A stretch of DNA of 39,122 bases from a virus (IMGVR_UViG_2869924733_000008), one strand, 5' to 3'. Positions 10,348 to 37,169 are shown, numbered from the stretch's first letter. Notes: generated by a model not told the origin, from the letters alone. Program-made: numbers and translations.

Positions 10348-11800
10348 TGAGGTAGCCTGAGTTTAACGGACACTCCTTCCTGAAATAGAATGGCATCAGA
10401 AGGAGCTAATAATGAGCAGAAAAACCCAACGTTACTCTAAAGAGTTCAAAGCCGAAGCTGTCAGAACGGTTCTTGAAAATCAACTTTCGATCAGTGAAGG
10501 CGCTTCCCGATTATCCCTTCCTGAAGGCACTTTAGGACAATGGGTTACCGCCGCCAGAAAAGGGCTCGGTACTCCTGGTTCCCGCACGGTGGCTGAACTG
10601 GAATCTGAAATTCTGCAACTGCGTAAGGCGTTAAATGAAGCTCGCCTTGAGCGAGATATATTAAAAAAAGCAACTGTAGATTCAATTGGTCAACGCAACA
10701 GTTATGTGAAAACATGGGGTTGCGGAGGTTTTTTGAATGAGACGAACATTTACAGCAGAGGAAAAAGCCTCTGTTTTTGAACTATGGAAGAACGGAACAG
10801 GCTTCAGTGAAATAGCGAATATCCTGGGTTCAAAACCCGGAACGATCTTCACTATGTTAAGGGATACTGGCGGCATAAAACCCCATGAGCGTAAGCGGGC
10901 TGTAGCTCACCTGACACTGTCTGAGCGCGAGGAGATACGAGCTGGTTTGTCAGCCAAAATGAGCATTCGTGCGATAGCTACTGCGCTGAATCGCAGTCCT
11001 TCGACGATCTCACGTGAAGTTCAGCGTAATCGGGGCAGACGCTATTACAAAGCTGTTGATGCTAATAACCGAGCCAACAGAATGGCGAAAAGGCCAAAAC
11101 CGTGCTTACTGGATCAAAATTTACCATTGCGAAAGCTTGTTCTGGAAAAGCTGGAGATGAAATGGTCTCCAGAGCAAATATCAGGATGGTTAAGGCGAAC
11201 AAAACCACGTCAAAAAACGCTGCGAATATCACCTGAGACAATTTATAAAACGCTGTACTTTCGTAGCCGTGAAGCGCTACACCACCTGAATATACAGCAT
11301 CTGCGACGGTCGCATAGCCTTCGCCATGGCAGGCGTCATACCCGCAAAGGCGAAAGAGGTACGATTAACATAGTGAACGGAACACCAATTCACGAACGTT
11401 CCCGAAATATCGATAACAGACGCTCTCTGGGGCATTGGGAGGGCGATTTAGTCTCAGGTACAAAAAACTCTCATATAGCCACACTTGTAGACCGAAAATC
11501 ACGTTATACGATCATCCTTAGACTCAGGGGCAAAGATTCTGTCTCAGTAAATCAGGCTCTTACCGACAAATTCCTGAGTTTACCGTCAGAACTCAGAAAA
11601 TCACTGACATGGGACAGAGGAATGGAACTGGCCAGACATCTAGAATTTACTGTCAGCACCGGCGTTAAAGTTTACTTCTGCGATCCTCAGAGTCCTTGGC
11701 AGCGGGGAACAAATGAGAACACAAATGGGCTAATTCGGCAGTACTTTCCTAAAAAGACATGTCTTGCCCAATATACTCAACATGAACTAGGCTGTGTCCC

Positions 11801-12316
11801 TTAATTACGTAAGCGTTGATAAAAGAGTCGGATGCAGCCCAGTTTCACCATCGCCAGGTAATTTCTCGCCGTTTTGTCGTAACGCGTGGCGATGCGGCGA
11901 TATTCTTTCAGCCGCCCAAAGCACCGTTCAACGACATTACGATTGCAGTACGCATCACGATCAAGCTGTGCACGTCCATCCGATGCCATTTTCTCATTTG
12001 ACTTTCGGGGGATTACTGCCTTTATACCGTTATTTTTCAGCTCGTTGCGCAATGCGCGCCCTGAATACGCTTTATCAGCCAGTACCGCATGTCCACGGCG
12101 TTTCATGCTGCCGTTCTGACGCTGAACGCCAATCCCGTCCAGAAGTCGTTGCGCGAACTGGCTTTCATGAGCTTGTCCGGGGCTTAGCACGATATTTAAC
12201 GGGAGGCCACTTCCGTCTGTTGCCAGATGGATTTTGGTGCCAAAACCGCCGCGAGAGCGACCCAGCCCATTATCTCCGTCGATATCGGGATGTTTTTTTG
12301 AGCACCGGCGGCACAT
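11801..12316 (-). CDS. IS5-family transposase orfB (DDE region; probably joined to orfA by frameshifting)
   Basis: Overlaps orfA by about 120 nt in another frame; contains DKAYSG, typical of DDE transposases of this group. Confidence 0.5.
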   Translation of the reverse strand: MCRRCSKKHPDIDGDNGLGRSRGGFGTKIHLATDGSGLPLNIVLSPGQAHESQFAQRLLDGIGVQRQNGSMKRRGHAVLADKAYSGRALRNELKNNGIKAVIPRKSNEKMASDGRAQLDRDAYCNRNVVERCFGRLKEYRRIATRYDKTARNYLAMVKLGCIRLFYQRLRN

Positions 12317-12645
12317 TTCAGCGCCCGGATATTACTGCCATCCAGCGCGGTGGCAGACCAGTCAATAAAGCCGTTTGCATCAAGTAGCGAAAGCAACCTG
12401 TTGAAAATAATATTAATCACGCCTGACTTTGACCATCGGTTAAAGCGGTTATAAACAGTTTTCCATGACCCATATCGTTCGGGTAAATCGCGCCATGGTG
12501 CACCGGAACATAACACCCAGAACATGCCATTGATGATTTTACGGTGCTCAGCCCATGGGCGTCCGGCCCGTGGTGTGGCGGGTTCAGGAGGTAACAGGGG
12601 CTTGATGATGGTCCATGCCTCATCGGGAAGGTCGTAGCGAGCCAT
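12196..12645 (-). CDS. IS5-family transposase orfA (149 aa)
   Basis: Contains ..PWRDLPERYGSWKTVYNRFNRWSKSGV.., a motif typical of the N-terminal part of IS5-family (IS427-group) transposases. Confidence 0.6.
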   Translation of the reverse strand: MARYDLPDEAWTIIKPLLPPEPATPRAGRPWAEHRKIINGMFWVLCSGAPWRDLPERYGSWKTVYNRFNRWSKSGVINIIFNRLLSLLDANGFIDWSATALDGSNIRALKCAAGAQKNIPISTEIMGWVALAAVLAPKSIWQQTEVASR

Positions 12646-12890
12646 AGTTCAATATGTTGTGTAAACAGACAGTTACTATAGCTCAGATGATTAAGGGACA
12701 CAGCCTAGATCTGGTTGCTGCTCAGCTAAACAACAGACCGAGAAAGACACTGAAGTTCAAAACACCGAAAGAGATAATTGAAAGGGGTGTTGCATTGACA
12801 GATTGAATCTACAACAGCGTATTTTGCACAGGAGTCGCTGAAAAATACGCGTTAATCGAACAATGGCGACAACAATTTCCCATTGAAGCG

Positions 12891-13709
12891 ATGTGTCAGG
12901 TATTTGGTGTATCCAGGAGCGGTTATTACAACTGGGTACAGCATGAACCCTCAGACAGAAAACAAAGTGATGAGCGGCTAAAACTGGAGATTAAGGTGGC
13001 ACATATCCGCACTCGCGAAACATATGGAACCCGGCGGCTCCAGACGGAGCTGGCAGAGAATGGCATCATCGTTGGTCGTGACCGACTGGCACGTCTTCGT
13101 AAGGAGCTAAGGCTACGCTGTAAGCAGAAACGCAAGTTCAGAGCGACTACGAACCCGAACCACAATCTGCCAGTTGCGCCAAATCTGCTGAACCAGACGT
13201 TCGCTCCTACAGCACCAAATCAGGTCTGGGTGGCGGACCTGACGTATGTTGCCACACAGGAGGGATGGTTGTACCTCGCTGGCATCAAAGATGTTTATAC
13301 GTGCGAAATTGTCGGCTACGCCATGGGAGAGCGCATGACAAAAGAGCTGACAGGTAAAGCCCTGTTTATGGCGCTCAGGAGCCAGCGCCCACCTGCCGGG
13401 CTAATCCACCACTCTGATCGAGGTTCACAGTACTGCGCATACGATTACCGGGTCATACAGGAGCAGTTTGGTCTGAAAACATCAATGTCGCGTAAAGGTA
13501 ACAGTTACGACAACGCTCCGATGGAAAGCTTCTGGGGAACGCTGAAAAATGAGAGCCTGAGCCACTATCGTTTTAATAACCGGGATGAAGCCATCTCAGT
13601 AATACGGGAATACATTGAGATTTTCTACAATCGTCAGCGTCGTCACTCTCGTCTGGGGAATATCTCCCCGGCAGCCTTCAGGGAAAAATATCATCAGATG
13701 GCTGCTTAA
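12891..13709 (+). CDS. IS600 orfB (transposase catalytic part, 272 aa)
   Basis: [25 protein letters not shown]... with DDE-type motifs (..[11 protein letters not shown].., ..[10 protein letters not shown]..); follows orfA of the same element. Confidence 0.8.
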   Translation: MCQVFGVSRSGYYNWVQHEPSDRKQSDERLKLEIKVAHIRTRETYGTRRLQTELAENGIIVGRDRLARLRKELRLRCKQKRKFRATTNPNHNLPVAPNLLNQTFAPTAPNQVWVADLTYVATQEGWLYLAGIKDVYTCEIVGYAMGERMTKELTGKALFMALRSQRPPAGLIHHSDRGSQYCAYDYRVIQEQFGLKTSMSRKGNSYDNAPMESFWGTLKNESLSHYRFNNRDEAISVIREYIEIFYNRQRRHSRLGNISPAAFREKYHQMAA

Positions 13710-13752
13710 AAAAAGAACAAATGGTAGTGTCCGCTATTGCCAGTACACCTCA

Positions 13753-15064
13753 TTGTTAATCTGTTTCTTCTGCGCCTCCGTCAGTGTCACCCCTTCACGG
13801 ATCCCTCCCCAGCGTTTGTACTGCTGGATAACGTCACTCATTGACGCTGCAACCAGCGCCCGCCCTTCATTGTTGTAGGGGATCGTCTGGTTTGACTTGA
13901 ATAACGCGATCACCGCCCCCTGCAAACTGGCATTCAGCCAGATTTGCCCGCAGAAACTGTCCAGCCATTTAAAATCACCGGTAATAGTGCCATCCGCCCA
14001 GTAATCTTCCACCACACTGTTTTCCGCATATTTTCCGTAGAAATTGTAACCTGCGGCGATCAGCGCATCATAATCGCTGCCACTGGTAACATCAGCGGCC
14101 AGCCCCTCATACTCGCGGAACTTGAATGATACACACCCCTCTGGTCGGACAAAATCAAGGCACGCTGCATACCCCAGTACCGCTGCAGCCCGGTTACCAT
14201 CAGTCGCGAAAACAGGTACAACAGAGCTGTAGTTATTGACAGCAATTATCTGGTAAGCGATGTGTTCAGTACTGCCTTTTACTCTGGCGTTGCCGCTGGT
14301 TGTCCATGCCACATAAAAGTAACGCTTGCCCTGCCCGTTTGCCCATGCAGAAAACGCCAGGTGTTGCTCGTCAGTGACCTCAGATACCGTGGAAAAACCC
14401 GCCCATTGCTGGGAAGCGGCCTTAATGGCTGCCATTGTGTCAGGGACATCAGATACAGGCGCGCCCCGGGATATCACCGCACCGGTGTTACTGGTCATCT
14501 TCAGGAGTTCTGTGCCGATCCACTGCCGAACGTTATCGTGGTACTCCCGGGTTTCGCCCCGGCGACAGTAATGACAAAAGCATTCTGTGTGGTATCGAAT
14601 ACCACTGTAGCCACTGCTGCGGTCAGCGCTGTCTGTAGTGCCGTTGCAGCAGCGGCGAAGCTGGCGACACCGTTAAAATTCACTTCAATGCTGACGCTTT
14701 TCCCGTTAATACTCAGCATCAGCGTGCCGGAAAGTTTTTGTAGCTGTTCAACAGTCGCGCCCTTAAACGAACCGCTACGTAACCAGGCCGCCGATGGGGC
14801 AGGACTGAAACGGGAAAACAACAATTGCCCCGGCGTCCTGGTGGCATTTTTGAAGCCCTGGAAATAAAGCTGAGCGCGTGCGTACTCATCGGATAATGCA
14901 CCAAAATACGCGGCCACATCATCCGGAGAGGAAAACGGAACCACAGTGCCGACCGGAAGTAACGGATTACTGGTCAACAGCAGGCCGTTAAGATCGACGG
15001 CATTACCCGCCACAGCCAGCACACCGGGATTTATCTGTACATCTTTACTGAGTGGAATTGGCAT
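13753..15064 (-). pseudogene. Tail sheath protein gene, frameshifted and 3'-truncated by IS600
   Basis: Two ORFs in different frames (14501-15064 and 13734-14498) switch near 14498-14503. The last five codons and the stop of the downstream ORF lie inside IS600. Sheath assignment is by size, position and N-terminal pattern (recall). Confidence 0.5.
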
Positions 15065-15590
15065 TATCAGCCTCCGTTGTCCGGGTGATCACGTTGTCAA
15101 AAAACATCAGGGAAGTTGTGACCACAGGGTTAATCTGCATCTGAATATCAAGCGTCCAGCGCGGTTCATACTGTTGCTGACCGTTGGGGAATGTGGTGTT
15201 AAAGGGCTCTGAGCAATACAGCGGGGAAATCAGCCCACCGCCCTGCCGGAAAAGCCGTACGGAAAATTCAGACCGGAAAAGCGTTGCCAGCACCTGCGCG
15301 TTATCTGCCGCGTGAGGGCCGTAGAAATCAAGCTGGCAACGCCATTTTGTGGTACGGGTGATATGCTGAGAGCCCTCACCAGCCTGCGCTGGCGCAGAAT
15401 ATGCCACTACCGCAGTGGATAATCCGGTAACATCAATGCCCGTCATGGTGATGAAATTCCCCTGAGGCATCGGGACCTGGTTCTGCTGCGTTCGTTCAAT
15501 CCCGGCATCAGAAAAAAGCCCCCGGAGATAATCACCGAGGGCCTGATAAAGAGCGCTTTCCGTAACGGAGAGGGTCACACCTGAAGGCAT
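15045..15590 (-). CDS. Phage structural-module protein, function unknown (neck/tail completion position)
   Basis: 181-aa ORF, tightly packed with overlapping start/stop in the head-tail joining region. Confidence 0.4.
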
Positions 15591-15940
15591 ACAATAACCC
15601 TCGTCCAGTCAGGCCAGATTTCCGGTACCTCAATCACCAGCCACGTTTCATCGCCAATAACAAATTTATCGCCTCCCTGTTGCCGGGCACGGTTAAGCCC
15701 GCACCAGTTACCATCGGTATACAATGTGGCGAAAACTCCCTGCTGGTTAAGATTATCAAGATGACGTAAATCAGCCTGGGTGACAGCCTGCTTTTGCACC
15801 CTGACAGAAACCGGATCTTCATACTCAGGTACGCGGGAATAATCTGCCTGCTGTGTACTCCCGCGGGAACGATAAACCAGCGCGTCTGTAAAGGGATTTA
15901 CCCGACGTACTGCGCCGGAAACAATACCGTGAAAGTTCAT
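15575..15940 (-). CDS. Phage structural-module protein, function unknown
   Basis: 121-aa ORF with ATGA overlap to the upstream gene. Confidence 0.4.
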   Translation of the reverse strand: MNFHGIVSGAVRRVNPFTDALVYRSRGSTQQADYSRVPEYEDPVSVRVQKQAVTQADLRHLDNLNQQGVFATLYTDGNWCGLNRARQQGGDKFVIGDETWLVIEVPEIWPDWTRVIVCLQV

Positions 15941-16521
15941 TTTTTGCCCCCGTCTACAGAATAATCAACGCTGTCCATCATATGTCCGGTTTCAATAAGC
16001 GGGTTGTTAAAACCCTTTTGCCGGGCAGTGGATGCAGCGTTGGGCGGACTTTCCCAGTCGCGAACAGACATCTGCAACTGCCCTTTGATATGTTCTCCCA
16101 TACACACCAGAGCGGTCGCAGTATCAAAATCATTCGCCCGTAATAAGGTCGCCATTTTTTCGCCCCATTCGGGACTTTTATGTTCGATCATCTTACGGAA
16201 GAACGGACGGGGGGGAATGGTGACCGTGTGCTCAGGAATAACCACATCCTGAACAAAATTCCCTTTACCGGCTTTGACAAAGCGGTGCCCGGTTTCTCCC
16301 GTTTTTTCGTTATAGCGAAAGTGGAGCGTCTGCTCACGGGCGGGTATGACCGCTCTTCCACCAAACTCCTGAACTGCGGCAATATAAGCCACTGACGTAC
16401 CGTCAGGGTAAGTTGCTCCCTCAAGAAAACCCACTTTGAGTTTTTTACCCAATGAAAGGTTCGCGGCAACCTGTTTCAGCTTCTGCCGGAACTGTTTGCC
16501 ACCTGTGACTTTATTTACCAT
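15937..16521 (-). CDS. Head-tail connector protein (HK97 gp10-like, tentative)
   Basis: Probable start is the internal ATG at 16521 ([11 protein letters not shown]...); the longer ORF to 16791 would overlap the upstream gene. Family call is from weak recalled similarity. Confidence 0.4.
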
Positions 16522-16969: not shown

Positions 16970-16974
16970 AGCGT

Positions 16975-17322: not shown

Positions 17323-17325
17323 AAC

Positions 17326-18836: not shown

Positions 18837-18837
18837 A

Positions 18838-23754: not shown

Positions 23755-24283
23755 TGAGGTGTACTGGCAATAGCGGACACTACCATTTGTTCTTTTTTTA
23801 AGCAGCCATCTGATGATATTTTTCCCTGAAGGCTGCCGGGGAGATATTCCCCAGACGAGAGTGACGACGCTGACGATTGTAGAAAATCTCAATGTATTCC
23901 CGTATTACTGAGATGGCTTCATCCCGGTTATTAAAACGATAGTGGCTCAGGCTCTCATTTTTCAGCGTTCCCCAGAAGCTTTCCATCGGAGCGTTGTCGT
24001 AACTGTTACCTTTACGCGACATTGATGTTTTCAGACCAAACTGCTCCTGTATGACCCGGTAATCGTATGCGCAGTACTGTGAACCTCGATCAGAGTGGTG
24101 GATTAGCCCGGCAGGTGGGCGCTGGCTCCTGAGCGCCATAAACAGGGCTTTACCTGTCAGCTCTTTTGTCATGCGCTCTCCCATGGCGTAGCTAGACTGG
24201 CCCCCTGAATCTCCAGACAACCAGTATCACTTAAATAAGTGATAGTCTTAATACTAGTTTTTAGACTAGTCATTGGAGTACAG

Positions 24284-24649
24284 ATGATTGATGTCTTAGG
24301 GCCGGAGAAACGCAGACGGCGTACCACACAGGAAAAGATCGCAATTGTTCAGCAGAGCTTTGAACCGGGGATGACGGTCTCCCTCGTTGCCCGGCAACAT
24401 GGTGTAGCAGCCAGCCAGTTATTTCTCTGGCGTAAGCAATACCAGGAAGGAAGTCTTACTGCTGTGGCCGCCGGAGAACAGGTTGTTCCTGCCTCTGAAC
24501 TTGCTGCCGCCATGAAGCAGATTAAAGAACTCCAGCGCCTGCTCGGCAAGAAAACGATGGAAAATGAACTCCTCAAAGAAGCCGTTGAATATGGACGGGC
24601 AAAAAAGTGGATAGCGCACGCGCCCTTATTGCCCGGGGATGGGGAGTAA
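24284..24649 (+). CDS. insC: IS2 InsC (orfA, 121 aa)
   Basis: [47 protein letters not shown]... matches recalled IS2 InsC. Confidence 0.9.
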
Positions 24650-25512
24650 GCTTAGTCAGCCGTTGTCTCCGGGTGTCGCGTGCGCAGTTGCACGTCATTC
24701 TCAGACGAACCGATGACTGGATGGATGGCCGCCGCAGTCGTCACACTGATGATACGGATGTGCTTCTCCGTATACACCATGTTATCGGAGAGCTGCCCAC
24801 GTATGGTTATCGTCGGGTATGGGCGCTGCTTCGCAGACAGGCAGAACTTGATGGTATGCCTGCGATCAATGCCAAACGTGTTTACCGGATCATGCGCCAG
24901 AATGCGCTGTTGCTTGAGCGAAAACCTGCTGTACCGCCATCGAAACGGGCACATACAGGCAGAGTGGCCGTGAAAGAAAGCAATCAGCGATGGTGCTCTG
25001 ACGGGTTCGAGTTCTGCTGTGATAACGGAGAGAGACTGCGTGTCACGTTCGCGCTGGACTGCTGTGATCGTGAGGCACTGCACTGGGCGGTGACTACCGG
25101 CGGCTTCAACAGTGAAACAGTACAGGACGTCATGCTGGGAGCGGTGGAACGCCGCTTCGGCAACGATCTTCCGTCGTCTCCAGTGGAGTGGCTGACGGAT
25201 AATGGTTCATGCTACCGGGCTAATGAAACACGCCAGTTCGCCCGGATGTTGGGACTTGAACCGAAGAACACGGCGGTGCGGAGTCCGGAGAGTAACGGAA
25301 TAGCAGAGAGCTTCGTGAAAACGATAAAGCGTGACTACATCAGTATCATGCCCAAACCAGACGGGTTAACGGCAGCAAAGAACCTTGCAGAGGCGTTCGA
25401 GCATTATAACGAATGGCATCCGCATAGTGCGCTGGGTTATCGCTCGCCACGGGAATATCTGCGGCAGCGGGCTTGTAATGGGTTAAGTGATAACAGATGT
25501 CTGGAAATATAG
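24607..25512 (+). CDS. insD: IS2 InsD (orfB, 301 aa)
   Basis: [41 protein letters not shown]... matches recalled IS2 InsD. Confidence 0.9.
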
Positions 25513-26029
25513 GGGCAAATCCAGTAGCCGACAATTTCGCACGTATAAACATCTTTGATGCCAGCGAAGTACAACCATCCCTCCTGTGTGGCAACATACG
25601 TCAGGTCCGCCACCCAGACCTGATTTGGTGCTGTAGGAGCGAACGTCTGGTTCAGCAGATTTGGCGCAACTGGCAGATTGTGGTTCGGGTTCGTAGTCGC
25701 TCTGAACTTGCGTTTCTGCTTACAGCGTAGCCTTAGCTCCTTACGAAGACGTGCCAGTCGGTCACGACCAACGATGATGCCATTCTCTGCCAGCTCCGTC
25801 TGGAGCCGCCGGGTTCCATATGTTTCGCGAGTGCGGATATGTGCCACCTTAATCTCCAGTTTTAGCCGCTCATCACTTTGTTTTCTGTCTGAGGGTTCAT
25901 GCTGTACCCAGTTGTAATAACCGCTCCTGGATACACCAAATACCTGACACATCGCTTCAATGGGAAATTGTTGTCGCCATTGTTCGATTAACGCGTATTT
26001 TTCAGCGACTCCTGTGCAAAATACGCTGT

Positions 26030-27250
26030 TGTAGATTCAATCTGTCAATGCAACACCCCTTTCAATTATCTCTTTCGGTGTTTTGAACTTCAGTGTCTTT
26101 CTCGGTCTGTTGTTTAGCTGAGCAGCAACCAGATCTAGTTCATGTTGAGTATATTGGGCAAGACATGTCTTTTTAGGAAAGTACTGCCGAATTAGCCCAT
26201 TTGTGTTCTCATTTGTTCCCCGCTGCCAAGGACTCTGAGGATCGCAGAAGTAAACTTTAACGCCGGTGCTGACAGTAAATTCTAGATGTCTGGCCAGTTC
26301 CATTCCTCTGTCCCATGTCAGTGATTTTCTGAGTTCTGACGGTAAACTCAGGAATTTGTCGGTAAGAGCCTGATTTACTGAGACAGAATCTTTGCCCCTG
26401 AGTCTAAGGATGATCGTATAACGTGATTTTCGGTCTACAAGTGTGGCTATATGAGAGTTTTTTGTACCTGAGACTAAATCGCCCTCCCAATGCCCCAGAG
26501 AGCGTCTGTTATCGATATTTCGGGAACGTTCGTGAATTGGTGTTCCGTTCACTATGTTAATCGTACCTCTTTCGCCTTTGCGGGTATGACGCCTGCCATG
26601 GCGAAGGCTATGCGACCGTCGCAGATGCTGTATATTCAGGTGGTGTAGCGCTTCACGGCTACGAAAGTACAGCGTTTTATAAATTGTCTCAGGTGATATT
26701 CGCAGCGTTTTTTGACGTGGTTTTGTTCGCCTTAACCATCCTGATATTTGCTCTGGAGACCATTTCATCTCCAGCTTTTCCAGAACAAGCTTTCGCAATG
26801 GTAAATTTTGATCCAGTAAGCACGGTTTTGGCCTTTTCGCCATTCTGTTGGCTCGGTTATTAGCATCAACAGCTTTGTAATAGCGTCTGCCCCGATTACG
26901 CTGAACTTCACGTGAGATCGTCGAAGGACTGCGATTCAGCGCAGTAGCTATCGCACGAATGCTCATTTTGGCTGACAAACCAGCTCGTATCTCCTCGCGC
27001 TCAGACAGTGTCAGGTGAGCTACAGCCCGCTTACGCTCATGGGGTTTTATGCCGCCAGTATCCCTTAACATAGTGAAGATCGTTCCGGGTTTTGAACCCA
27101 GGATATTCGCTATTTCACTGAAGCCTGTTCCGTTCTTCCATAGTTCAAAAACAGAGGCTTTTTCCTCTGCTGTAAATGTTCGTCTCATTCAAAAAACCTC
27201 CGCAACCCCATGTTTTCACATAACTGTTGCGTTGACCAATTGAATCTACA
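26030..27250 (-). mobile_element. IS30 (1221 bp) inside IS600 copy 2
   Basis: IS30 terminal repeats at both ends; 2-bp duplication (GT on the plus strand) at 26028-29 and 27251-52. Confidence 0.9.
26037..27188 (-). CDS. insI: IS30 transposase (383 aa)
   Basis: [38 protein letters not shown]... full length, identical to the other intact copies. Confidence 0.95.
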   Translation of the reverse strand: MRRTFTAEEKASVFELWKNGTGFSEIANILGSKPGTIFTMLRDTGGIKPHERKRAVAHLTLSEREEIRAGLSAKMSIRAIATALNRSPSTISREVQRNRGRRYYKAVDANNRANRMAKRPKPCLLDQNLPLRKLVLEKLEMKWSPEQISGWLRRTKPRQKTLRISPETIYKTLYFRSREALHHLNIQHLRRSHSLRHGRRHTRKGERGTINIVNGTPIHERSRNIDNRRSLGHWEGDLVSGTKNSHIATLVDRKSRYTIILRLRGKDSVSVNQALTDKFLSLPSELRKSLTWDRGMELARHLEFTVSTGVKVYFCDPQSPWQRGTNENTNGLIRQYFPKKTCLAQYTQHELDLVAAQLNNRPRKTLKFKTPKEIIERGVALTD

Positions 27251-27952
27251 GTTGCTTTTTTTAATATATCTCGCTCAAGGCGAGCTTCATTTAACGCCTT
27301 ACGCAGTTGCAGAATTTCAGATTCCAGTTCAGCCACCGTGCGGGAACCAGGAGTACCGAGCCCTTTTCTGGCGGCGGTAACCCATTGTCCTAAAGTGCCT
27401 TCAGGAAGGGATAATCGGGAAGCGCCTTCACTGATCGAAAATTGATTTTCAAGAACCGTTCTGACAGCTTCGGCTTTGAACTCTTTAGAGTAACGTTGGG
27501 TTTTTCTGCTCATTATTAGCTCCTTCTGATGCCATTCTATTTCAGGAAGGAGTGTCCGTTAAACTCAGGCTACCTCAGGTCTTCCGACGATTCTGTCATT
27601 GTTCATTAAGCAAAAGTTTCCATGCTGTTTGTGCTTATTCTAAGCAACCGGGCAGCATCATACGGGGCAATTATGGCCGCATTACCATACATGCAACTGT
27701 ACATAGCTAATTACCTGGCTGACACCATGCATTTGTCAGCAGAGGAGCACGGCGCGTATTTGTTGCTGATGTTCAATTACTGGCAAACAGGAAAGCCAAT
27801 ACCCAAAAACAGGTTGGCAAAAATTGCCCGTCTGACTAACGAGCGATGGGTTGATGTTGAACCATCCTTGCGGGAGTTTTTTTGTGATAACGGCGACGAA
27901 TGGATGCATCTTCGGATTGAGGAAGATCTGGCATCTGTCAGTGGATTTGCCC

Positions 27953-28858
27953 CTATATTTCCAGACATCTGTTATCACTTAACCCATTACAAGCCCGCTG
28001 CCGCAGATATTCCCGTGGCGAGCGATAACCCAGCGCACTATGCGGATGCCATTCGTTATAATGCTCGAACGCCTCTGCAAGGTTCTTTGCTGCCGTTAAC
28101 CCGTCTGGTTTGGGCATGATACTGATGTAGTCACGCTTTATCGTTTTCACGAAGCTCTCTGCTATTCCGTTACTCTCCGGACTCCGCACCGCCGTGTTCT
28201 TCGGTTCAAGTCCCAACATCCGGGCGAACTGGCGTGTTTCATTAGCCCGGTAGCATGAACCATTATCCGTCAGCCACTCCACTGGAGACGACGGAAGATC
28301 GTTGCCGAAGCGGCGTTCCACCGCTCCCAGCATGACGTCCTGTACTGTTTCACTGTTGAAGCCGCCGGTAGTCACCGCCCAGTGCAGTGCCTCACGATCA
28401 CAGCAGTCCAGCGCGAACGTGACACGCAGTCTCTCTCCGTTATCACAGCAGAACTCGAACCCGTCAGAGCACCATCGCTGATTGCTTTCTTTCACGGCCA
28501 CTCTGCCTGTATGTGCCCGTTTCGATGGCGGTACAGCAGGTTTTCGCTCAAGCAACAGCGCATTCTGGCGCATGATCCGGTAAACACGTTTGGCATTAAT
28601 CGCAGGCATACCATCAAGTTCTGCCTGTCTGCGAAGCAGCGCCCATACCCGACGATAACCATACGTGGGCAGCTCTCCGATAACATGGTGTATACGGAGA
28701 AGCACATCCGTATCATCAGTGTGACGACTGCGGCGGCCATCCATCCAGTCATCGGTTCGTCTGAGAATGACGTGCAACTGCGCACGCGACACCCGGAGAC
28801 AACGGCTGACTAAGCTTACTCCCCATCCCCGGGCAATAAGGGCGCGTGCGCTATCCAC
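27953..28858 (-). CDS. insD: IS2 InsD (orfB, 301 aa)
   Basis: Same protein as 24607-25512, apart from one substitution. Confidence 0.9.
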
Positions 28859-29181
28859 TTTTTTGCCCGTCCATATTCAACGGCTTCTTTGAGGAGTTCA
28901 TTTTCCATCGTTTTCTTGCCGAGCAGGCGCTGGAGTTCTTTAATCTGCTTCATGGCGGCAGTAAGTTCAGAGGCAGGAACAACCTGTTCTCCGGCGGCCA
29001 CAGCAGTAAGACTTCCTTCCTGGTATTGCTTACGCCAGAGAAATAACTGGCTGGCTGCTACACCATGTTGCCGGGCAACGAGGGAGACCGTCATCCCCGG
29101 TTCAAAGCTCTGCTGAACAATTGCGATCTTTTCCTGTGTGGTACGCCGTCTGCGTTTCTCCGGCCCTAAGACATCAATCAT
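28816..29181 (-). CDS. insC: IS2 InsC (orfA, 121 aa), cut off from the IS2 left end by IS630
   Basis: [13 protein letters not shown]...; the longer ORF to 29238 is read-through from the IS630 end. Confidence 0.85.
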
Positions 29182-29198
29182 CTGTACTCCAATGACTA

Positions 29199-30351
29199 AA
29201 TAGCTGCGCTTAATACCGCTACACTTTTGCCAGTCCATGTTTGCCTCCGGGGAATGGGCTGACGGTTTCCATAAAATGGCGAACTTTTTTCAACAGTTGC
29301 CACATTGAGCGGCACTGATGATTACGCGTTATTGTGTCGTGAAGTGCCTGCCATAGCCGTTCAACATGATTCACCCATGGCGAGTAAACCGGCTGATAAA
29401 TGACCCTGAACTTCGGGTTCTCCTTCAGCCAGCTCTGTGTTTCCCGGCTTTTGTGGATAATGTAGTTGTCCACGATCAGCGTGATGGTTTTCGCCCGACG
29501 GTATGTCGCTTTAAGCCGCTTCAGCAGGCTGATGAACAGCGCCGAACTTTTGCTGTTGCCGCCCACATAGCTGACTTTACCTGTCCCGCTGTGCAGCGCT
29601 CCGGCCAGATAATATTTTTCATTCTGTCCCGGCGTGACCACCCGTTTTTGCTGTCCGCGCAGTTGCCAGTCCGCACCGATTTTGGGATAAAGATGGATAT
29701 CCACTTCATCTTCATAAAAGACCGGATGCTCTGCGCTGCATTCGTCCAGTGCTTTATGGATTGCTGCCATCTTTTCATCTTTATGCGGGTCACGGATACG
29801 CAGAGTTGGCGCAGCCCTTCGCCACACAATCCCCGCAGACGGCAACCAGCGGCGAACGGTTCCGGCATTTAACTGGCAACCGGTTATCTCATTGATTTTT
29901 ATTGCCAGCAGTTCTGTACTCCAGCGTGAACGCTGGTAGACAAAGTCGCCGGGAGAATGTTTTACCAGCTCACGTAACAGTGTGCAGATATGCTCAAACG
30001 GCCAGCGACGGGCACGCCCGGCAGGTAATGATTTCAGTCCCTCAACACCCGACTGCGTGAACCAGTTAATCCAGCGTCCAACAGAGGAACGGGCGCAGCA
30101 GAGCGTTCTGGCAACGTCGCTGACACGGTCGCCCCGGTGCAGCATCAGCATGGCAGTCAGTCTGCGGGCATAATTTTTATCGTGTGTTTTATGGATGGCT
30201 TTCTGCATCAGGCGTCGTTCGTCACGGGAAATTGGTGCTATGATCGGCATTGCTCAGTCCGGTTGGTGATTTGTTTTGATTTGGCGATTGATCAGATCGC
30301 ACAATCCGGGCTAAGTTCCCTCAAAGTGATCTACTATTCCGCGCAGCTATT
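29199..30351 (-). mobile_element. IS630 (1153 bp) inserted in the IS2 left-end region
   Basis: Terminal repeats AATAGCTGCGC.../...GCGCAGCTATT; TA duplication inside the IS2 sequence ..AGACTAGTC.. (CTAG target). Confidence 0.85.
29219..30250 (-). CDS. IS630 transposase (Tc1/mariner superfamily, 343 aa)
   Basis: [31 protein letters not shown]... matches recalled IS630 transposase; size is exact. Confidence 0.85.
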
Positions 30352-30536
30352 TAGTCTAAAAACTAGTATTAAGACTATCACTTATTTAAGTGATACTGGT
30401 TGTCTGGAGATTCAGGGGGCCAGTCTAGTCAGAGAAAAATTAACCAAAAAATCAGCCGCAGGAAAAGCATCTGTTCAGGCCAGAAGAAGCAGAAAGGAAG
30501 CAGATGTTCAAACAAAACAAGAGAGAAATTTAACAG

Positions 30537-31289: not shown

Positions 31290-31295
31290 CAGACC

Positions 31296-32042
31296 ATGAA
31301 AAATATTGCGACAGGAGGCGTTCTGGAGCGTATCCGCAGACTGACCCCACCACATGTAACCGCCCCATTCAGAACGGTTGCGGAGTGGCGCGAGTGGCAA
31401 CTTGCTGAAGGCCAGAAACGTTGCGAGGAGATCAACCGCCTGAATCGTCAGTTGCGGGTGGAAAAAATCCTGAACCGCTCCGGCATCCAGCCGTTGCACC
31501 GGAAGTGTTCGTTTGCGAATTACCGGGCGCAGAACGACGGTCAGCGACATGCACTGAGTCAGGCGAAATCCATAGCTGACGAACTGATGACAGGCTGTAC
31601 GAATTTTGTGTTCAGCGGTAAGCCCGGCACCGGAAAAAATCATCTTGCAGCCGCGATTGGCAACCGGCTGATGGCGAAGGGGCGTAGCGTGATTATCGTC
31701 ACCGTGTCCGATGTCATGAGCGTGTTGCATGAGAGCTACGACAACGGCAAATCCGGTGAAAAATTTTTACAGGAGCTTTGTGGTGTTGACCTGCTGGTCC
31801 TGGATGAAATTGGCATGCAGCGGGATACGAAAAACGAGCAGGTGGTACTGAACCAGATTGTTGATCGCCGGACGGCATCGTTACGCGGTGTGGGGATGCT
31901 GACAAATATTAACCATGCAGCGATGAATACACTTCTCGGCGAGCGGGTGATGGATCGCATGGTCATGAACGGCGGGCGCTGGGTGAATTTTAACTGGGAG
32001 AGCTGGCGTCCGAATGTTAGCCATTCGAGGGTTGTTAAGTAG
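31296..32042 (+). CDS. DnaC-like helicase loader (IstB-type AAA+ ATPase)
   Basis: Walker A GKPGTGKNHLAAAIG and Walker B LLVLDEIG; 248 aa; typical replication-module partner of the DnaT/YdaU-like gene. Confidence 0.85.
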   Translation: MKNIATGGVLERIRRLTPPHVTAPFRTVAEWREWQLAEGQKRCEEINRLNRQLRVEKILNRSGIQPLHRKCSFANYRAQNDGQRHALSQAKSIADELMTGCTNFVFSGKPGTGKNHLAAAIGNRLMAKGRSVIIVTVSDVMSVLHESYDNGKSGEKFLQELCGVDLLVLDEIGMQRDTKNEQVVLNQIVDRRTASLRGVGMLTNINHAAMNTLLGERVMDRMVMNGGRWVNFNWESWRPNVSHSRVVK

Positions 32043-32056
32043 TTTCAGGAGGATTT

Positions 32057-32158
32057 ATGGCGAAACCTTTTACTCCCGAACAGCGGGAAGAACTGAAGAC
32101 GCGAATTGTGGAACTCGTGCATCAGGACGGTCGGGTCACGATTCGGCAGTTGTCAGAT
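32057..32158 (+). pseudogene. Small phage gene truncated after 34 codons by the IS911 end
   Basis: MAKPFTPEQREELKTRIVELVHQDGRVTIRQLSD, then a TGA supplied by the first bases of the IS911 inverted repeat. Confidence 0.4.
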
Positions 32159-32166
32159 TGAAGTGG

Positions 32167-34295
<2,129 letters not shown>

Positions 34296-34527
34296 GTAGC
34301 CTTTTTTAATATTTCATTCTCCATTTCAATGCGTTGTAGCTTTTTCCTCAGCTTACGTATTTCGATTTGTTCTGGTGTTATCGGAGAGGCTTTTGGTGTT
34401 TTGCCCTGACGCTCATCACGCAGTTGTTTGACCCATCTTGTCATTGTGGAAAGGCCAACATCCATAGCTTTGGCGGCATCTGCCTGAGGTGTACTGGCAA
34501 TAGCGGACACTACCATTTGTTCTTTTT

Positions 34528-35346
34528 TTAAGCAGCCATCTGATGATATTTTTCCTTGAAGGCTGCCGGGGAGATATTCCCCAGACGAGAGTGACGACGC
34601 TGACGATTGTAGAAAATCTCAATGTATTCCCGTATTACTGAGATGGCTTCATCCCGGTTATTAAAACGATAGTGGCTCAGGCTCTCATTTTTCAGCGTTC
34701 CCCAGAAGCTTTCCATCGGAGCGTTGTCGTAACAGTTACCTTTACGCGACATTGATGTTTTCAGACCAAACTGCTCCTGTATGACCCGGTAATCGTATGC
34801 GCAGTACTGTGAACCTCGATCAGAGTGGTGGATTAGCCCGGCAGGTGGGCGCTGGCTCCTGAGCGCCATAAACAGGGCTTTACCTGTCAGCTCTTTTGTC
34901 ATGCGCTCTCCCATGGCGTAGCCGACAATTTCGCACGTATAAACATCTTTGATGCCAGCGAGGTACAACCATCCCTCCTGTGTGGCAACATACGTCAGGT
35001 CCGCCACCCAGACCTGATTTGGTGCTGTAGGAGCGAACGTCTGGTTCAGCAGATTTGGCGCAACTGGCAGATTGTGGTTCGGGTTCGTAGTCGCTCTGAA
35101 CTTGCGTTTCTGCTTACAGCGTAGCCTTAGCTCCTTACGAAGACGTGCCAGTCGGTCACGACCAACGATGATGCCATTCTCTGCCAGCTCCGTCTGGAGC
35201 CGCCGGGTTCCATATGTTTCGCGAGTGCGGATATGTGCCACCTTAATCTCCAGTTTTAGCCGCTCATCACTTTGTTTTCTGTCTGAGGGTTCATGCTGTA
35301 CCCAGTTGTAATAACCGCCCCTGGATACACCAAATACCTGACACAT
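34528..35346 (-). CDS. IS600 orfB (272 aa)
   Basis: Same protein as 12891-13709 with three substitutions (S10G, S/C, R/K). Confidence 0.8.
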
Positions 35347-35423
35347 CGCTTCAATGGGAAATTGTTGTCGCCATTGTTCGATTAACGCGTATTTTTCAGC
35401 GACTCCTGTGCAAAATACGCTGT

Positions 35424-36644
35424 TGTAGATTCAATTGGTCAACGCAACAGTTATGTGAAAACATGGGGTTGCGGAGGTTTTTTGAATGAGACGAACATTT
35501 ACAGCAGAGGAAAAAGCCTCTGTTTTTGAACTATGGAAGAACGGAACAGGCTTCAGTGAAATAGCGAATATCCTGGGTTCAAAACCCGGAACGATCTTCA
35601 CTATGTTAAGGGATACTGGCGGCATAAAACCCCATGAGCGTAAGCGGGCTGTAGCTCACCTGACACTGTCTGAGCGCGAGGAGATACGAGCTGGTTTGTC
35701 AGCCAAAATGAGCATTCGTGCGATAGCTACTGCGCTGAATCGCAGTCCTTCGACGATCTCACGTGAAGTTCAGCGTAATCGGGGCAGACGCTATTACAAA
35801 GCTGTTGATGCTAATAACCGAGCCAACAGAATGGCGAAAAGGCCAAAACCGTGCTTACTGGATCAAAATTTACCATTGCGAAAGCTTGTTCTGGAAAAGC
35901 TGGAGATGAAATGGTCTCCAGAGCAAATATCAGGATGGTTAAGGCGAACAAAACCACGTCAAAAAACGCTGCGAATATCACCTGAGACAATTTATAAAAC
36001 GCTGTACTTTCGTAGCCGTGAAGCGCTACACCACCTGAATATACAGCATCTGCGACGGTCGCATAGCCTTCGCCATGGCAGGCGTCATACCCGCAAAGGC
36101 GAAAGAGGTACGATTAACATAGTGAACGGAACACCAATTCACGAACGTTCCCGAAATATCGATAACAGACGCTCTCTGGGGCATTGGGAGGGCGATTTAG
36201 TCTCAGGTACAAAAAACTCTCATATAGCCACACTTGTAGACCGAAAATCACGTTATACGATCATCCTTAGACTCAGGGGCAAAGATTCTGTCTCAGTAAA
36301 TCAGGCTCTTACCGACAAATTCCTGAGTTTACCGTCAGAACTCAGAAAATCACTGACATGGGACAGAGGAATGGAACTGGCCAGACATCTAGAATTTACT
36401 GTCAGCACCGGCGTTAAAGTTTACTTCTGCGATCCTCAGAGTCCTTGGCAGCGGGGAACAAATGAGAACACAAATGGGCTAATTCGGCAGTACTTTCCTA
36501 AAAAGACATGTCTTGCCCAATATACTCAACATGAACTAGATCTGGTTGCTGCTCAGCTAAACAACAGACCGAGAAAGACACTGAAGTTCAAAACACCGAA
36601 AGAGATAATTGAAAGGGGTGTTGCATTGACAGATTGAATCTACA
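35424..36644 (+). mobile_element. IS30 (1221 bp) inside IS600 copy 3, opposite orientation to its host element
   Basis: IS30 terminal repeats; 2-bp duplication at 35422-23 and 36645-46. Confidence 0.9.
35486..36637 (+). CDS. insI: IS30 transposase (383 aa)
   Basis: Full-length, identical protein to the other intact copies. Confidence 0.95.
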   Translation: MRRTFTAEEKASVFELWKNGTGFSEIANILGSKPGTIFTMLRDTGGIKPHERKRAVAHLTLSEREEIRAGLSAKMSIRAIATALNRSPSTISREVQRNRGRRYYKAVDANNRANRMAKRPKPCLLDQNLPLRKLVLEKLEMKWSPEQISGWLRRTKPRQKTLRISPETIYKTLYFRSREALHHLNIQHLRRSHSLRHGRRHTRKGERGTINIVNGTPIHERSRNIDNRRSLGHWEGDLVSGTKNSHIATLVDRKSRYTIILRLRGKDSVSVNQALTDKFLSLPSELRKSLTWDRGMELARHLEFTVSTGVKVYFCDPQSPWQRGTNENTNGLIRQYFPKKTCLAQYTQHELDLVAAQLNNRPRKTLKFKTPKEIIERGVALTD

Positions 36645-37169
36645 GTTGCTTTTTTTAATATATCTCGCTCAAGGCGAGCTTCATTTAACGCCTTACGCAG
36701 TTGCAGAATTTCAGATTCCAGTTCAGCCACCGTGCGGGAACCAGGAGTACCGAGCCCTTTTCTGGCGGCGGTAACCCATTGTCCTAAAGTGCCTTCAGGA
36801 AGGGATAATCGGGAAGCGCCTTCACTGATCGAAAATTGATTTTCAAGAACCGTTCTGACAGCTTCGGCTTTGAACTCTTTAGAGTAACGTTGGGTTTTTC
36901 TGCTCATTATTAGCTCCTTCTGATGCCATTCTATTTCAGGAAGGAGTGTCCGTTAAACTCAGGCTACCTCAGCCACCGTGTATTTCTGGTCAACAACCAG
37001 TTGAGCGGATTCGCGTTTAAACTCTGCGCTAAAATTTCTTTTTTTCATTGGAGCACCTGTGTTGTTCTGAGGTGAGCATATCACCTCTGTTCAGGTGGCC
37101 AAATTCAGTGTGCCACTTCATATCTTAAACTACCGGAATGAACTGCTGCATGGAGAAACGCTTTACCTA

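What the first reader, a model, noticed from the sequence alone, without database searches (positions are those of the whole stretch)
10673..36646. IS30 occupies the same dinucleotide in orfA of all three IS600 copies, once in inverted orientation
Junctions at 10673/10675, 27250/27251 and 36644/36645 all read ..ATATTAAAAAAAGCAAC | TGTAGATTCAAT.., each with a 2-bp AC duplication. In copies 1 and 2 IS30 is co-oriented with IS600; in copy 3 it is inverted. The IS600 copies differ by a few substitutions (orfA L/F; orfB S/G, S/C, R/K, L/F). Possible explanations are a strong IS30 hot spot hit independently, spread of an IS600::IS30 composite mobilised in trans, or in-situ inversion. In every case the IS600 copies here lack an intact orfA-orfB unit.
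Basis: partly seen in the sequence, partly recalled or inferred. Interest (0 to 1): 0.7.

Follow-up and report, generated by a model that had tools for sequence, protein, structure and literature searches.

The report
IS30 nested in IS600 hot spot
The insertion sequence IS30 repeatedly lands on one specific dinucleotide inside other insertion sequences (IS600, IS911 and relatives) because that spot matches IS30's known preferred target; the same junctions are in over a thousand E. coli genomes, including K-12, so this is real but ordinary.

Summary
All three IS600 copies carry IS30 at the same AC dinucleotide (IS600 positions 326-327), twice co-oriented and once inverted.

This is sequence-directed hot-spot insertion by IS30.
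- **Independent prediction.** A weight matrix trained only on IS30 sites outside IS3-family elements ranks the observed IS600 position first of 1235. No position in 49 kb of background sequence scores as high.
- **Public samples.** 27 of 34 viral-contig IS30 ends, and at least 85 of 120 metagenome ends, abut the "ILKKA" frameshift window of IS3-family orfA genes, in both orientations.
- **Haplotypes.** IS30-bearing IS600 copies are not monophyletic. They carry the haplotype of the local uninterrupted IS600.
- **E. coli census.** Of 5426 complete genomes, 1276 hold the co-oriented junction and 327 the inverted one. K-12 MG1655 already annotates IS600/IS30D/IS911B.

There are secondary processes. 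Copies 1 and 2 share a marker (1015A) seen only in IS30-bearing copies, which suggests one composite was copied. Hybrid flanks elsewhere show IS30-IS30 recombination.

In-situ inversion and assembly artefact are rejected. This is known biology and of modest interest.

The parts
10348..10674 (+). IS600 copy 1, left part (positions 1-327: left inverted repeat and orfA up to ...ILKKA). It ends with the AC target duplication at 10673-10674.
   Evidence: It is 100% identical to the left part of the RefSeq-annotated IS600 in EIEC strain VL7S7.
10675..11790 (+). IS30 copy A, positions 1-1116, co-oriented with IS600. Its transposase ORF is truncated to 355 aa.
11791..12704 (-). 914-bp IS5-family element nested in IS30 A. 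It has 15-bp inverted repeats (GCTGTGTCCCTTAAT) and a CTAG target duplication.
   Evidence: NF033580, IS5 family, 1e-51.
12705..12813 (+). IS30 copy A, positions 1113-1221, including the right inverted repeat.
12814..13752 (+). IS600 copy 1, right part. It starts with the duplicated AC at 12814-12815. There is no 3-bp duplication flanking this copy (CAG on one side, TTG on the other).
23755..24192 (-). IS600 copy 2, distal right part.
24193..25523 (+). IS2 (1331 bp) nested in IS600 copy 2, with a 5-bp duplication GCTAC.
25524..26029 (-). IS600 copy 2, proximal right part. It abuts the right inverted repeat of IS30 B. On the + strand the duplicated AC reads GT at 26028-26029.
26030..27250 (-). 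IS30 copy B, intact, with a 383-aa transposase ORF; co-oriented with IS600 copy 2.
27251..27577 (-). IS600 copy 2, left part.
32159..33074 (-). IS911, right part (downstream of the hot spot).
   Evidence: It matches the IS911 annotated in K-12.
33075..34295 (-). IS30 copy C, intact, co-oriented with IS911. It sits at the orfA position homologous to the IS600 site, with an AC duplication.
34296..34484 (-). IS911 orfA segment ending ...[10 protein letters not shown] at the IS30 C junction.
34485..35423 (-). IS600 copy 3, right part. The whole of copy 3 is inserted in IS911 with a 3-bp duplication GGC.
35424..36644 (+). IS30 copy D, intact, inverted relative to IS600 copy 3.
36645..36971 (-). IS600 copy 3, left part.
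36972..37120 (-). IS911 left end (its left inverted repeat ends at 37120).

Best explanation
**Proposed mechanism.** IS30 transposase integrates the element at its preferred natural hot-spot sequence, an imperfect palindrome with an A/T-rich arm, a GC core, a 2-bp staggered cut and the mirrored arm. My de novo half-site is roughly AAAAAGGCn[NN].

In IS3-family elements, the DNA that encodes the end of the OrfA leucine zipper plus the -1 frameshift slippery run is an excellent match. In IS600 this reads ATATTAAAAAAAGCA[AC]AGCGTATTTT, encoding ...ILKKA. IS30 therefore lands on the same dinucleotide of IS600, of IS911 and of related elements, in either orientation, and makes a 2-bp AC duplication.

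**Events needed in this window.** At least three IS30 insertions are needed: co-oriented in IS600, inverted in IS600, and co-oriented in IS911.

**Copies 1 and 2.** These probably descend from one IS600::IS30 composite that was then copied. The likely routes are IS600 transposase supplied in trans acting on the intact IS600 ends, or homologous recombination.

**Consequences.** Each insertion splits orfA/orfAB four bases after the A7 slippery run, so the host IS600 cannot make its own transposase. Three of the four IS30 copies keep an intact transposase gene.

**Shown versus inferred.** The structures, the target similarity, the recurrence and the haplotypes are shown. The order of events, mobilisation in trans and the actual targeting frequency are inferred.
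For: 1. **Junctions and duplications.** The junctions are identical, with 2-bp duplications, in both orientations.

2. **Fourth IS30.** A fourth IS30 sits at the homologous codon of IS911.

3. **Public samples.**
   - In IMG/VR contigs, 27 of 34 IS30 left ends abut IS3-family orfA ILKKA-type sites. These come from five element types, in both orientations.
   - In metagenome contigs, at least 85 of 120 do so: IS911 17 co-oriented and 18 inverted, IS600 16 and 9, an IS3-like element 15 and 7, and an IS911-like element 3.

4. **Independent prediction.**
   - A matrix trained on 29 half-sites from non-IS3 targets ranks IS600 position 326-327 first of 1235 (16.6 bits; the next best is 9.8).
   - It picks the exact duplicated dinucleotide in IS911 (15.2 bits), the IS911-like element (16.0) and the IS3-like element (10.8).
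   - None of 49,139 background positions reaches 16.6 (maximum 13.6).
   - Only 20 empty sites score 14 bits or more in 0.92 Mb.

5. **Haplotypes.**
   - The three window copies carry 169C and 667C, like the uninterrupted EIEC IS600.
   - E. coli composites of both orientations carry 169T and 667T, like uninterrupted E. coli copies.
   - A composite on a plasmid next to espP shares 873T with an uninterrupted copy in strain E2865.
   - The FDAARGOS_536 composite has 14 differences in its IS600 right part but an identical IS30.

6. **Census.** Of 5426 complete E. coli genomes, 1276 hold the co-oriented junction, 327 the inverted one, 1071 the right junction and 1639 an uninterrupted site. The junctions lie in unrelated contexts.

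7. **Literature.** IS30 inserts into nearly palindromic hot spots with 2-bp duplications (PMC9333248). IS30-family targets have a GC-biased centre and AT-rich distal arms (PMC9927407).

8. **Composite copying.** The marker 1015A is found in copies 1 and 2, in L020 (a different locus, complete composite with TAT duplication) and in L030. It is absent from every uninterrupted IS600 examined. The best uninterrupted matches are 99.9%, not 100%.
Against: - No transposition assay was done, so targeting frequency is inferred from where elements survive.
- Genome and contig counts are inflated by vertical inheritance, composite copying and sampling of E. coli-rich material. They are not counts of events.
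- Survivorship could add to the enrichment: an IS30 insertion inside another IS is harmless, while one inside a gene is selected against.
- Gene conversion among IS600 copies could mimic the local-haplotype pattern. Position 137T is shared by copies 2 and 3 while 1015A is shared by copies 1 and 2, so some exchange has occurred.
- The composite-copying inference rests on one SNP, and the collections searched hold no Shigella chromosomes.
- I could not retrieve the published 24-bp consensus (Olasz et al. 1998). The consensus used here is my own.
Confidence: 0.85

Rival explanations
1. A single ancestral IS30 insertion created one IS600::IS30 composite. All later copies arose by mobilisation of that composite by IS600 transposase in trans. 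No hot spot is needed.
For: - The composite keeps both IS600 ends.
- Complete composites with 3-bp IS600-type duplications exist at different loci: window copy 3 (GGC), Nissle 1917 (AAC), FDAARGOS_536 (GGA) and L020 (TAT).
- The marker 1015A is seen only in IS30-bearing copies.
Against: - It cannot give both orientations.
- It cannot place IS30 at the homologous site of IS911 and at least three other IS3-family orfA genes.
- IS30-bearing IS600 copies carry different lineage-specific IS600 haplotypes that match local uninterrupted copies.
- The site is the top-scoring IS30 target in IS600 by a matrix trained elsewhere.
Confidence: 0.08
2. Homologous recombination or gene conversion between IS600 copies, using the 327-bp and 937-bp flanking homology, copies the IS30 insertion from one IS600 into others without any new transposition.
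For: - SNP patterns conflict: 137T is shared by copies 2 and 3, and 1015A by copies 1 and 2.
- Hybrids with mismatched left and right flanks show that recombination through these repeats is frequent: K-12 IS30D, L021, L025, L030 and L031.
- Copies 1 and 2 lack IS600 duplications and border a 4-kb prophage deletion.
Against: - It does not explain how the inverted allele or the IS911 and other IS3-family insertions arose.
- It does not explain the match to targets outside IS elements.
- It can only spread an insertion that already exists.
Confidence: 0.25
3. IS30 in copy 3 was inverted in place after a co-oriented insertion.
For: The duplicated AC flanks IS30 on both sides in either orientation, so sequence alone cannot formally exclude this.
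Against: - The inverted junction is 100% identical in 327 E. coli genomes at several unrelated loci.
- It is common in metagenomes for IS600, IS911 and the IS3-like element.
- Recombination between the inverted IS30 copies C and D would break the colinearity of IS911 and IS600 that is actually observed.
- A nearly palindromic target predicts both orientations anyway.
Confidence: 0.02
4. The three copies are an assembly artefact, that is, collapsed or duplicated repeats.
For: The four IS30 copies are 100% identical.
Against: - The three IS600 copies differ at five SNPs.
- They have different flanks and different nested elements: an IS5-family element, IS2, and IS911 as host.
- A related contig (L021) reproduces 10 kb of the window, including junction 1.
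- The same junctions occur in more than a thousand finished genomes.
Confidence: 0.01

Closest known systems
E. coli K-12 MG1655 KpLE2 locus: IS911B / IS30D / IS600 fragment / IS911B-1 (4507125-4509801)
   Same: The IS600(1-327)|IS30 left-end junction is the same at base level. The 240-bp junction query matches at 100%. IS30 also touches the IS911 ILKKA site there.
   Different: - In K-12 the IS30 is a recombinant hybrid: the IS600 left part lies on one side and the reverse complement of the IS911 left part on the other.
- The IS600 right part is lost in K-12.
- In K-12, IS600 lies in IS911 orfB in the opposite orientation and at another position than window copy 3.
- The window copies are complete, non-hybrid composites.
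E. coli K-12 CP4-6 locus: IS911A::IS30A (insN interrupted by insI1, 270206-272190)
   Same: IS30 is co-oriented at the same AC of IS911 orfA as window IS30 C. The two loci are colinear across the whole IS30 (PMC9333248).
   Different: The IS911 flanks are only 92-97% identical to the window's, while the IS30 copies are about 99.5% identical. K-12 IS911A is incomplete and carries no IS600.
Natural IS30 hot spots, such as the lambda hot spot LHS near position 33290 (Olasz and co-workers)
   Same: - Nearly palindromic target, 2-bp duplication, used in both orientations (PMC9333248).
- The lambda sequence ...AATAAAAGTGGCGATAGTGAATTT shows the same A-rich arm and GGC core.
- The K-12 ydbA site and several metagenome sites share the half-site.
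   Different: The target here lies inside another mobile element and coincides with its programmed-frameshift window. It is therefore multi-copy, and it moves.
Target preference of other IS30-family elements (ISApl1, IS1655)
   Same: A GC-biased centre flanked by AT-rich arms, and a 2-bp duplication (PMC9927407).
   Different: These are different elements with different consensus details. The papers I could read do not report a link to IS3-family orfA.

Membership tests
IS30 (IS30 family) | About 1221 bp, with terminal inverted repeats beginning TGTAGATTCAAT. | tested here: met
   Four copies. Three are an uninterrupted 1221 bp, and the split copy reassembles to 1221 bp. All are 100% identical to each other and 99.8-99.9% identical to K-12 IS30D.
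IS30 (IS30 family) | A single transposase ORF of 383 aa. | tested here: met
   383-aa ORFs lie at 26037-27188, 33082-34233 and 35486-36637. Copy A is truncated to 355 aa by a nested IS. RefSeq labels the matching K-12 gene an IS30 transposase.
IS30 (IS30 family) | A 2-bp target duplication. | tested here: met
   The AC duplication is present at all four insertions.
IS600 (IS3 family) | 1264 bp, ends TGAGG...CCTCA, with orfA and orfB joined by a -1 frameshift. | tested here: met
   Each reconstructed copy is 1264 bp. Copy 1 differs at one base from the RefSeq-annotated 'IS3-like element IS600 family transposase, programmed frameshift' of VL7S7.
IS600 (IS3 family) | A 3-bp target duplication. 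| tested here: inconclusive
   Copy 3 has GGC. Copies 1 and 2 have none (CAG/TTG and ACC/CTC) and border a deletion.
IS30 natural hot-spot (HS) target | An imperfect palindrome with a GC-biased centre and AT-rich arms around the 2-bp cut. | tested here: met
   The IS600 site reads TTAAAAAAAGCA[AC]AGCGTATTTTGC. It is the top-scoring position in IS600 under a matrix trained on non-IS3 sites. The description of the target type comes from PMC9333248 and PMC9927407.
IS30 natural hot-spot (HS) target | Recurrent, independent use, in both orientations. | tested here: met
   Both orientations occur in the window, in 1276 and 327 E. coli genomes, and in metagenomes. Multiple IS600 haplotypes and multiple IS3-family hosts are involved.
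IS30 natural hot-spot (HS) target | Match to the published 24-bp consensus, and raised insertion frequency in a transposition assay. | not testable with these tools
   The 1998 consensus paper is not in the held library.
Non-autonomous composite mobilised in trans (IS600::IS30 as a unit) | Both IS600 ends intact, with the host-type 3-bp duplication around the whole composite. | tested here: met
   Seen in window copy 3 (GGC), L020 (TAT), Nissle 1917 (AAC) and FDAARGOS_536 (GGA). A duplication does not show whether IS30 was already inside when IS600 moved.
Non-autonomous composite mobilised in trans (IS600::IS30 as a unit) | A marker restricted to IS30-bearing copies at several loci. | tested here: inconclusive
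   The marker 1015A occurs in copies 1 and 2, L020 and L030, and in no uninterrupted copy sampled. This is a single SNP, and no Shigella chromosomes were searched.
Non-autonomous composite mobilised in trans (IS600::IS30 as a unit) | A source of IS600 OrfAB in the same cell, and demonstrated movement. | not testable with these tools
   The window holds no intact IS600. The rest of the genome was not available.

The most novel reading that the evidence does not exclude
IS30 may in practice be a specialist on other insertion sequences. Its preferred target coincides with the conserved ILKKA / A6-7G frameshift window of IS3-family orfA genes, and most surviving IS30 copies sampled sit there (71-79%, across at least five to seven different IS3-family hosts, in both orientations).

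On this reading IS30 would disable the host element's transposase while leaving its ends intact, and could then be carried along when that element is mobilised in trans. I found no such general statement in the papers I could search. It may nevertheless exist in the older IS30 literature, which I could not read.
Probability: 0.2. Interest if true: 0.5.

Novelty: already known. Interest (0 to 1): 0.28.

Why it matters
- **Annotation.** IS600 and IS911 fragments next to IS30 are halves of one nested structure, not separate relics.
- **Genome rearrangement.** Identical IS30 copies embedded in multi-copy IS600 and IS911 add 1.2-kb homology tracts. These have demonstrably recombined: K-12 IS30D and several public contigs are hybrids.
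- **IS600 activity.** Every IS30 hit removes one source of IS600 transposase. This bears on IS600 activity in IS-laden Shigella and EIEC genomes.
- **A testable extension.** The possible specialisation of IS30 on IS3-family frameshift windows is small but testable.

Tried and rejected
- **Published consensus not retrievable.** I looked for the 24-bp IS30 consensus and for any paper describing IS30 in IS600 or IS3-family orfA. I found only general statements (PMC9333248, PMC9927407) and single-case mentions of IS911 interrupted by IS30 (PMC9333248, PMC4924310). I therefore derived the consensus de novo.
- **Genome-representative scan unhelpful.** Scanning genome contigs with the IS30 left end returned one locus only.
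- **No orthologous occupied/empty pair found.** I looked for the same IS600 insertion with and without IS30. The EIEC VL7S7 prophage has an uninterrupted IS600 in the same tail-sheath gene, but 27 bp away and with its own GTT duplication, so it is not orthologous.
- **No simple inversion between copies 1 and 2.** I tested whether these inverted copies had exchanged flanks. The flank triplets do not match crosswise.
- **Orientation of copy 3 not explained by C/D recombination.** Recombination between IS30 C and IS30 D would disrupt the observed colinearity of IS911 and IS600.
- **Rfam.** On an uninterrupted IS600, the only match is a sub-threshold hit to the ALIL frameshift pseudoknot (14.3 bits against a gathering score of 50). 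I treat it as a hint, not evidence.
- **The exact insertion point in lambda LHS was ambiguous by about one base** from the paper's coordinates. I left it out of the matrix.


Full report
**1. Observation**

The 17-mer ATATTAAAAAAAGCAAC occurs exactly three times in the window, at 10658-10674 (+), 27251-27267 (-) and 36645-36661 (-), against none expected by chance. Each occurrence abuts an IS30 terminus.

Self-BLAST shows four IS30 copies, not three. All are 100% identical over 1221 bp:

| Copy | Coordinates | Strand |
|---|---|---|
| A | 10675-11790 plus 12705-12813 | + |
| B | 26030-27250 | - |
| C | 33075-34295 | - |
| D | 35424-36644 | + |

The IS600 copies map as follows:

| Copy | Strand | Layout |
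|---|---|---|
| 1 | + | 10348-10674 \| IS30 A \| 12814-13752 |
| 2 | - | 27577-27251 \| IS30 B \| 26029-25524 \| IS2 \| 24192-23755 |
| 3 | - | 36971-36645 \| IS30 D \| 35423-34485 |

Each copy reconstructs to 1264 bp. IS30 is co-oriented with IS600 in copies 1 and 2 and inverted in copy 3. All junctions carry the AC duplication. The three IS600 copies differ at positions 137, 430, 787, 1015 and 1193.

Three things were missed:
- IS30 C lies in a different IS3-family element, IS911 (32159-37120, -). It sits at the homologous point of orfA...GAAATATTAAAAAAGGCT[AC]|IS30|[AC]CGCGCTC, directly after the codons for [10 protein letters not shown].
- IS30 A is split by a 914-bp IS5-family element.
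- IS600 copy 2 is split by IS2.

**2. Setting**

The left 24 kb of the window is a tailed prophage next to sitABCD. It is about 99% identical to a prophage of EIEC strains. Relative to the intact EIEC prophage, about 4 kb of tail genes is missing beside IS600 copy 1. The prophage is also cut off at IS600 copy 2.

The window also holds IS110-, IS66- and IS630-family elements and a second IS2. The source is evidently a Shigella/EIEC-type genome loaded with IS elements.

An IMG/VR contig (L021) reproduces window 1-3853 plus 5303-11790 at 99.7-99.99%, including junction 1. Together with the distinct flanks, SNPs and nested elements, this excludes an assembly duplication.

**3. The same junctions elsewhere**

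I searched 240-bp junction queries against 5426 complete E. coli genomes, requiring at least 80% coverage:

| Query | Genomes |
|---|---|
| IS600 left part \| IS30 left end (co-oriented) | 1276 |
| IS600 left part \| IS30 right end (inverted) | 327 |
| IS30 right end \| IS600 right part | 1071 |
| Uninterrupted IS600 site | 1639 |

K-12 MG1655 carries the co-oriented junction. Its RefSeq record annotates IS911B, IS30D, a 327-bp IS600 fragment and IS911B-1 at 4507125-4509801. It also annotates IS911A/IS30A/IS911A-1 at 270206-272190 (also noted in PMC9333248).

The composites lie in unrelated contexts:
- Co-oriented: downstream of sat in Nissle 1917, an island in FDAARGOS_536, next to espP on a 71.7-kb plasmid of strain 2013C-4991, beside traI on an ETEC plasmid, and KpLE2 in K-12.
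- Inverted: a porin/hchA locus in O104:H4, an ETEC island, and strain M217.

These counts are not counts of events, because vertical inheritance inflates them. They do show that both alleles are old, widespread and already recorded.

**4. What determines the site**

*Natural IS30 insertion sites.* I collected sites with an exact 34-mer of the IS30 left end.
- In IMG/VR contigs, 27 of 34 left flanks are IS3-family orfA sites that end in ILKKA or a close variant. They are IS600, IS911, an IS911-like element, an IS3-like element (...TDERDILKKA) and a degenerate ...EILKQT element, in both orientations.
At least 85 of 120 usable flanks are of this kind: IS911 17 co-oriented and 18 inverted, IS600 16 and 9, the IS3-like element 15 and 7, and the IS911-like element 3. 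Two further OrfA-like types (...EILKQA and ...EFLKKA) also appear.
- In every IS3-family case the junction falls two bases after the alanine codon.

*Test of the hot-spot idea without circularity.* I trained a 16-position weight matrix on 29 half-sites taken only from targets outside IS3-family elements. These were K-12 ydbA plus viral and metagenome sites. The consensus half-site is about T-A-A-A-A-A-(C/G)-G-C-n-[NN].
- Scoring both halves at every position of uninterrupted IS600, the observed AC (326-327) ranks first of 1235, at 16.6 bits against 9.8 for the next best.
- The matrix picks the exact duplicated dinucleotide in IS911 (15.2 bits), the IS911-like element (16.0) and the IS3-like element (10.8).
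- None of 49,139 background prophage positions reaches 16.6; the maximum is 13.6.
- Only 20 unoccupied sites score 14 bits or more in 0.92 Mb of metagenome loci.

This agrees with the literature. IS30 inserts into nearly palindromic hot spots and makes 2-bp repeats (PMC9333248). IS30-family targets have a GC-biased centre and AT-rich arms (PMC9927407). I could not read the 1998 paper that defines the 24-bp consensus. My recollection of it, a symmetric AT-rich / GC-core sequence, is memory only.

*Coincidence with the frameshift window.* The target coincides with the IS600 frameshift window. OrfA reads TTA AAA AAA GCA ACA GCG..., and the orfB frame continues from the A7 run. This is read directly from the sequence, and RefSeq annotates a programmed frameshift for IS600. 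A sub-threshold Rfam match to the ALIL frameshift pseudoknot starts at IS600 position 328, the first base after the insertion point (14.3 bits against a gathering score of 50, so only a hint).

**5. Independent hits or spread?**

Haplotypes:
- The window copies all carry 169C and 667C, as does the uninterrupted IS600 of EIEC strain VL7S7. That copy differs from copy 1 only at position 1015.
- E. coli composites of both orientations carry 169T and 667T, like uninterrupted E. coli copies.
- The composite next to espP on the plasmid of strain 2013C-4991 shares 873T with an uninterrupted copy in the chromosome of strain E2865.
- The FDAARGOS_536 composite has 14 differences in its IS600 right part but an IS30 identical to the window's.

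Taken with the two orientations and the several host elements, this means many independent insertions.

There is also evidence for secondary copying. Copies 1 and 2 share 1015A. The same base occurs in a complete co-oriented composite at another locus with its own TAT duplication (L020), and in L030. It occurs in no uninterrupted IS600 examined. The best uninterrupted matches are 99.9% rather than 100% in 824 plasmid records and 3967 E. coli records. This is a single SNP, and Shigella chromosomes were not searchable, so I hold it loosely.

Recombination is clearly active too:
- K-12 IS30D has the IS600 left part on one side and the reverse complement of the IS911 left part on the other. This fits a deletion between two direct IS30 copies.
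- L021, L025, L030 and L031 are similar hybrids.
- The conflicting SNPs (137T in copies 2 and 3; 1015A in copies 1 and 2) point to some exchange among the window copies.

All four IS30 insertions in the window have matching left and right flanks, so none of them is a hybrid.

**6. Mechanism and consequences**

The best account is hot-spot integration by IS30, acting on a target that happens to be the conserved ILKKA/slippery-run DNA of IS3-family elements. It requires at least three insertion events in this window. Copies 1 and 2 are probably derived from one composite.

Each insertion cuts orfA/orfAB four bases beyond the A7 run, so none of the three IS600 copies can encode its transposase. 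IS30 B, C and D keep intact 383-aa ORFs.

The strong enrichment of IS30 inside other IS elements probably combines three factors: sequence preference, the high copy number of the target in such genomes, and survivorship, since insertion into an IS is harmless. My data cannot separate these.

**7. Comparison with the known, and verdict**

The nearest matches are the two K-12 loci and the classical IS30 hot spots. The window differs from them only in carrying complete, non-hybrid composites, and three of them within 27 kb.

The structure and the principle are already known. What I did not find stated in the searchable literature is the generalisation that IS3-family frameshift windows are the main natural home of IS30. 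I rate that reading as possible but unproven, and of moderate interest. Overall interest is low to modest.

Noticed in passing
window 11791-12704: A 914-bp IS5-family element is nested inside IS30 copy A. It has 15-bp inverted repeats (GCTGTGTCCCTTAAT) and a CTAG duplication. It is absent from the otherwise near-identical IMG/VR contig L021, so it is a recent insertion.
   Followed up: partly
window 3854-5302: An IS110-family element (398-aa ORF at 4081-5277) interrupts the prophage tail-fibre region. It is absent from L021 and from the EIEC CFSAN029787 prophage.
   Followed up: partly
window 9410-13752, compared with L002 11795-15826: About 4 kb of prophage tail genes (baseplate, lytic transglycosylase/tape-measure region, part of the sheath gene) is missing next to IS600 copy 1. 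It is replaced by an IS66-family transposase fragment (9442-10332). IS600 copies 1 and 2 lack 3-bp duplications, which suggests IS-mediated deletion or recombination.
   Followed up: partly
window 27942-30427, and 37167-38325: A second IS2 (minus strand) is split by an IS630-family element at about 29199-30351. The 74-bp IS2 left end resumes at about 30354-30427. A second, identical IS630-family copy lies at about 37167-38325, just beyond the IS911 left end.
   Followed up: partly
L001/L007 (E. coli K-12 KpLE2 locus); also L021, L025, L030, L031: Some IS30 copies have left and right flanks from different host elements: IS600 left part with the reverse complement of IS911 left part, IS3-like with IS911, IS911 with IS600, and two inverted IS600 left parts. 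These are footprints of homologous recombination between IS30 copies sitting in different hot spots.
   Followed up: partly
L026 about 7150-7267, and L038 about 5550-5660: An IS911-like orfA upstream of an IS30 insertion carries an expanded hexanucleotide repeat (GAAATA)n. It encodes ...IEIEIEIEIEIEILKQT immediately before the junction.
   Followed up: no
L016 14116-14218 (uninterrupted IS600 of EIEC strain VL7S7): There is a weak Rfam match to the ALIL frameshift pseudoknot (RF01497; 14.3 bits, E = 0.66, gathering score 50). It starts exactly at the base after the IS30 insertion point. IS30 would thus separate the slippery run from any downstream stimulatory structure.
   Followed up: no
L016 13789-15052, compared with window 13753: EIEC strain VL7S7 has an uninterrupted IS600 in the same prophage tail-sheath gene, 27 bp from the window's IS600 copy 1 right end, with its own GTT duplication. 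These are two separate IS600 hits close together in one gene.
   Followed up: yes
window 31296-32042 and 38283-39122: A DnaC-like helicase-loader ORF (NF009043, 9e-153) and a tyrosine-recombinase ORF that runs off the window end lie among the IS debris. They are probably remnants of another prophage.
   Followed up: no
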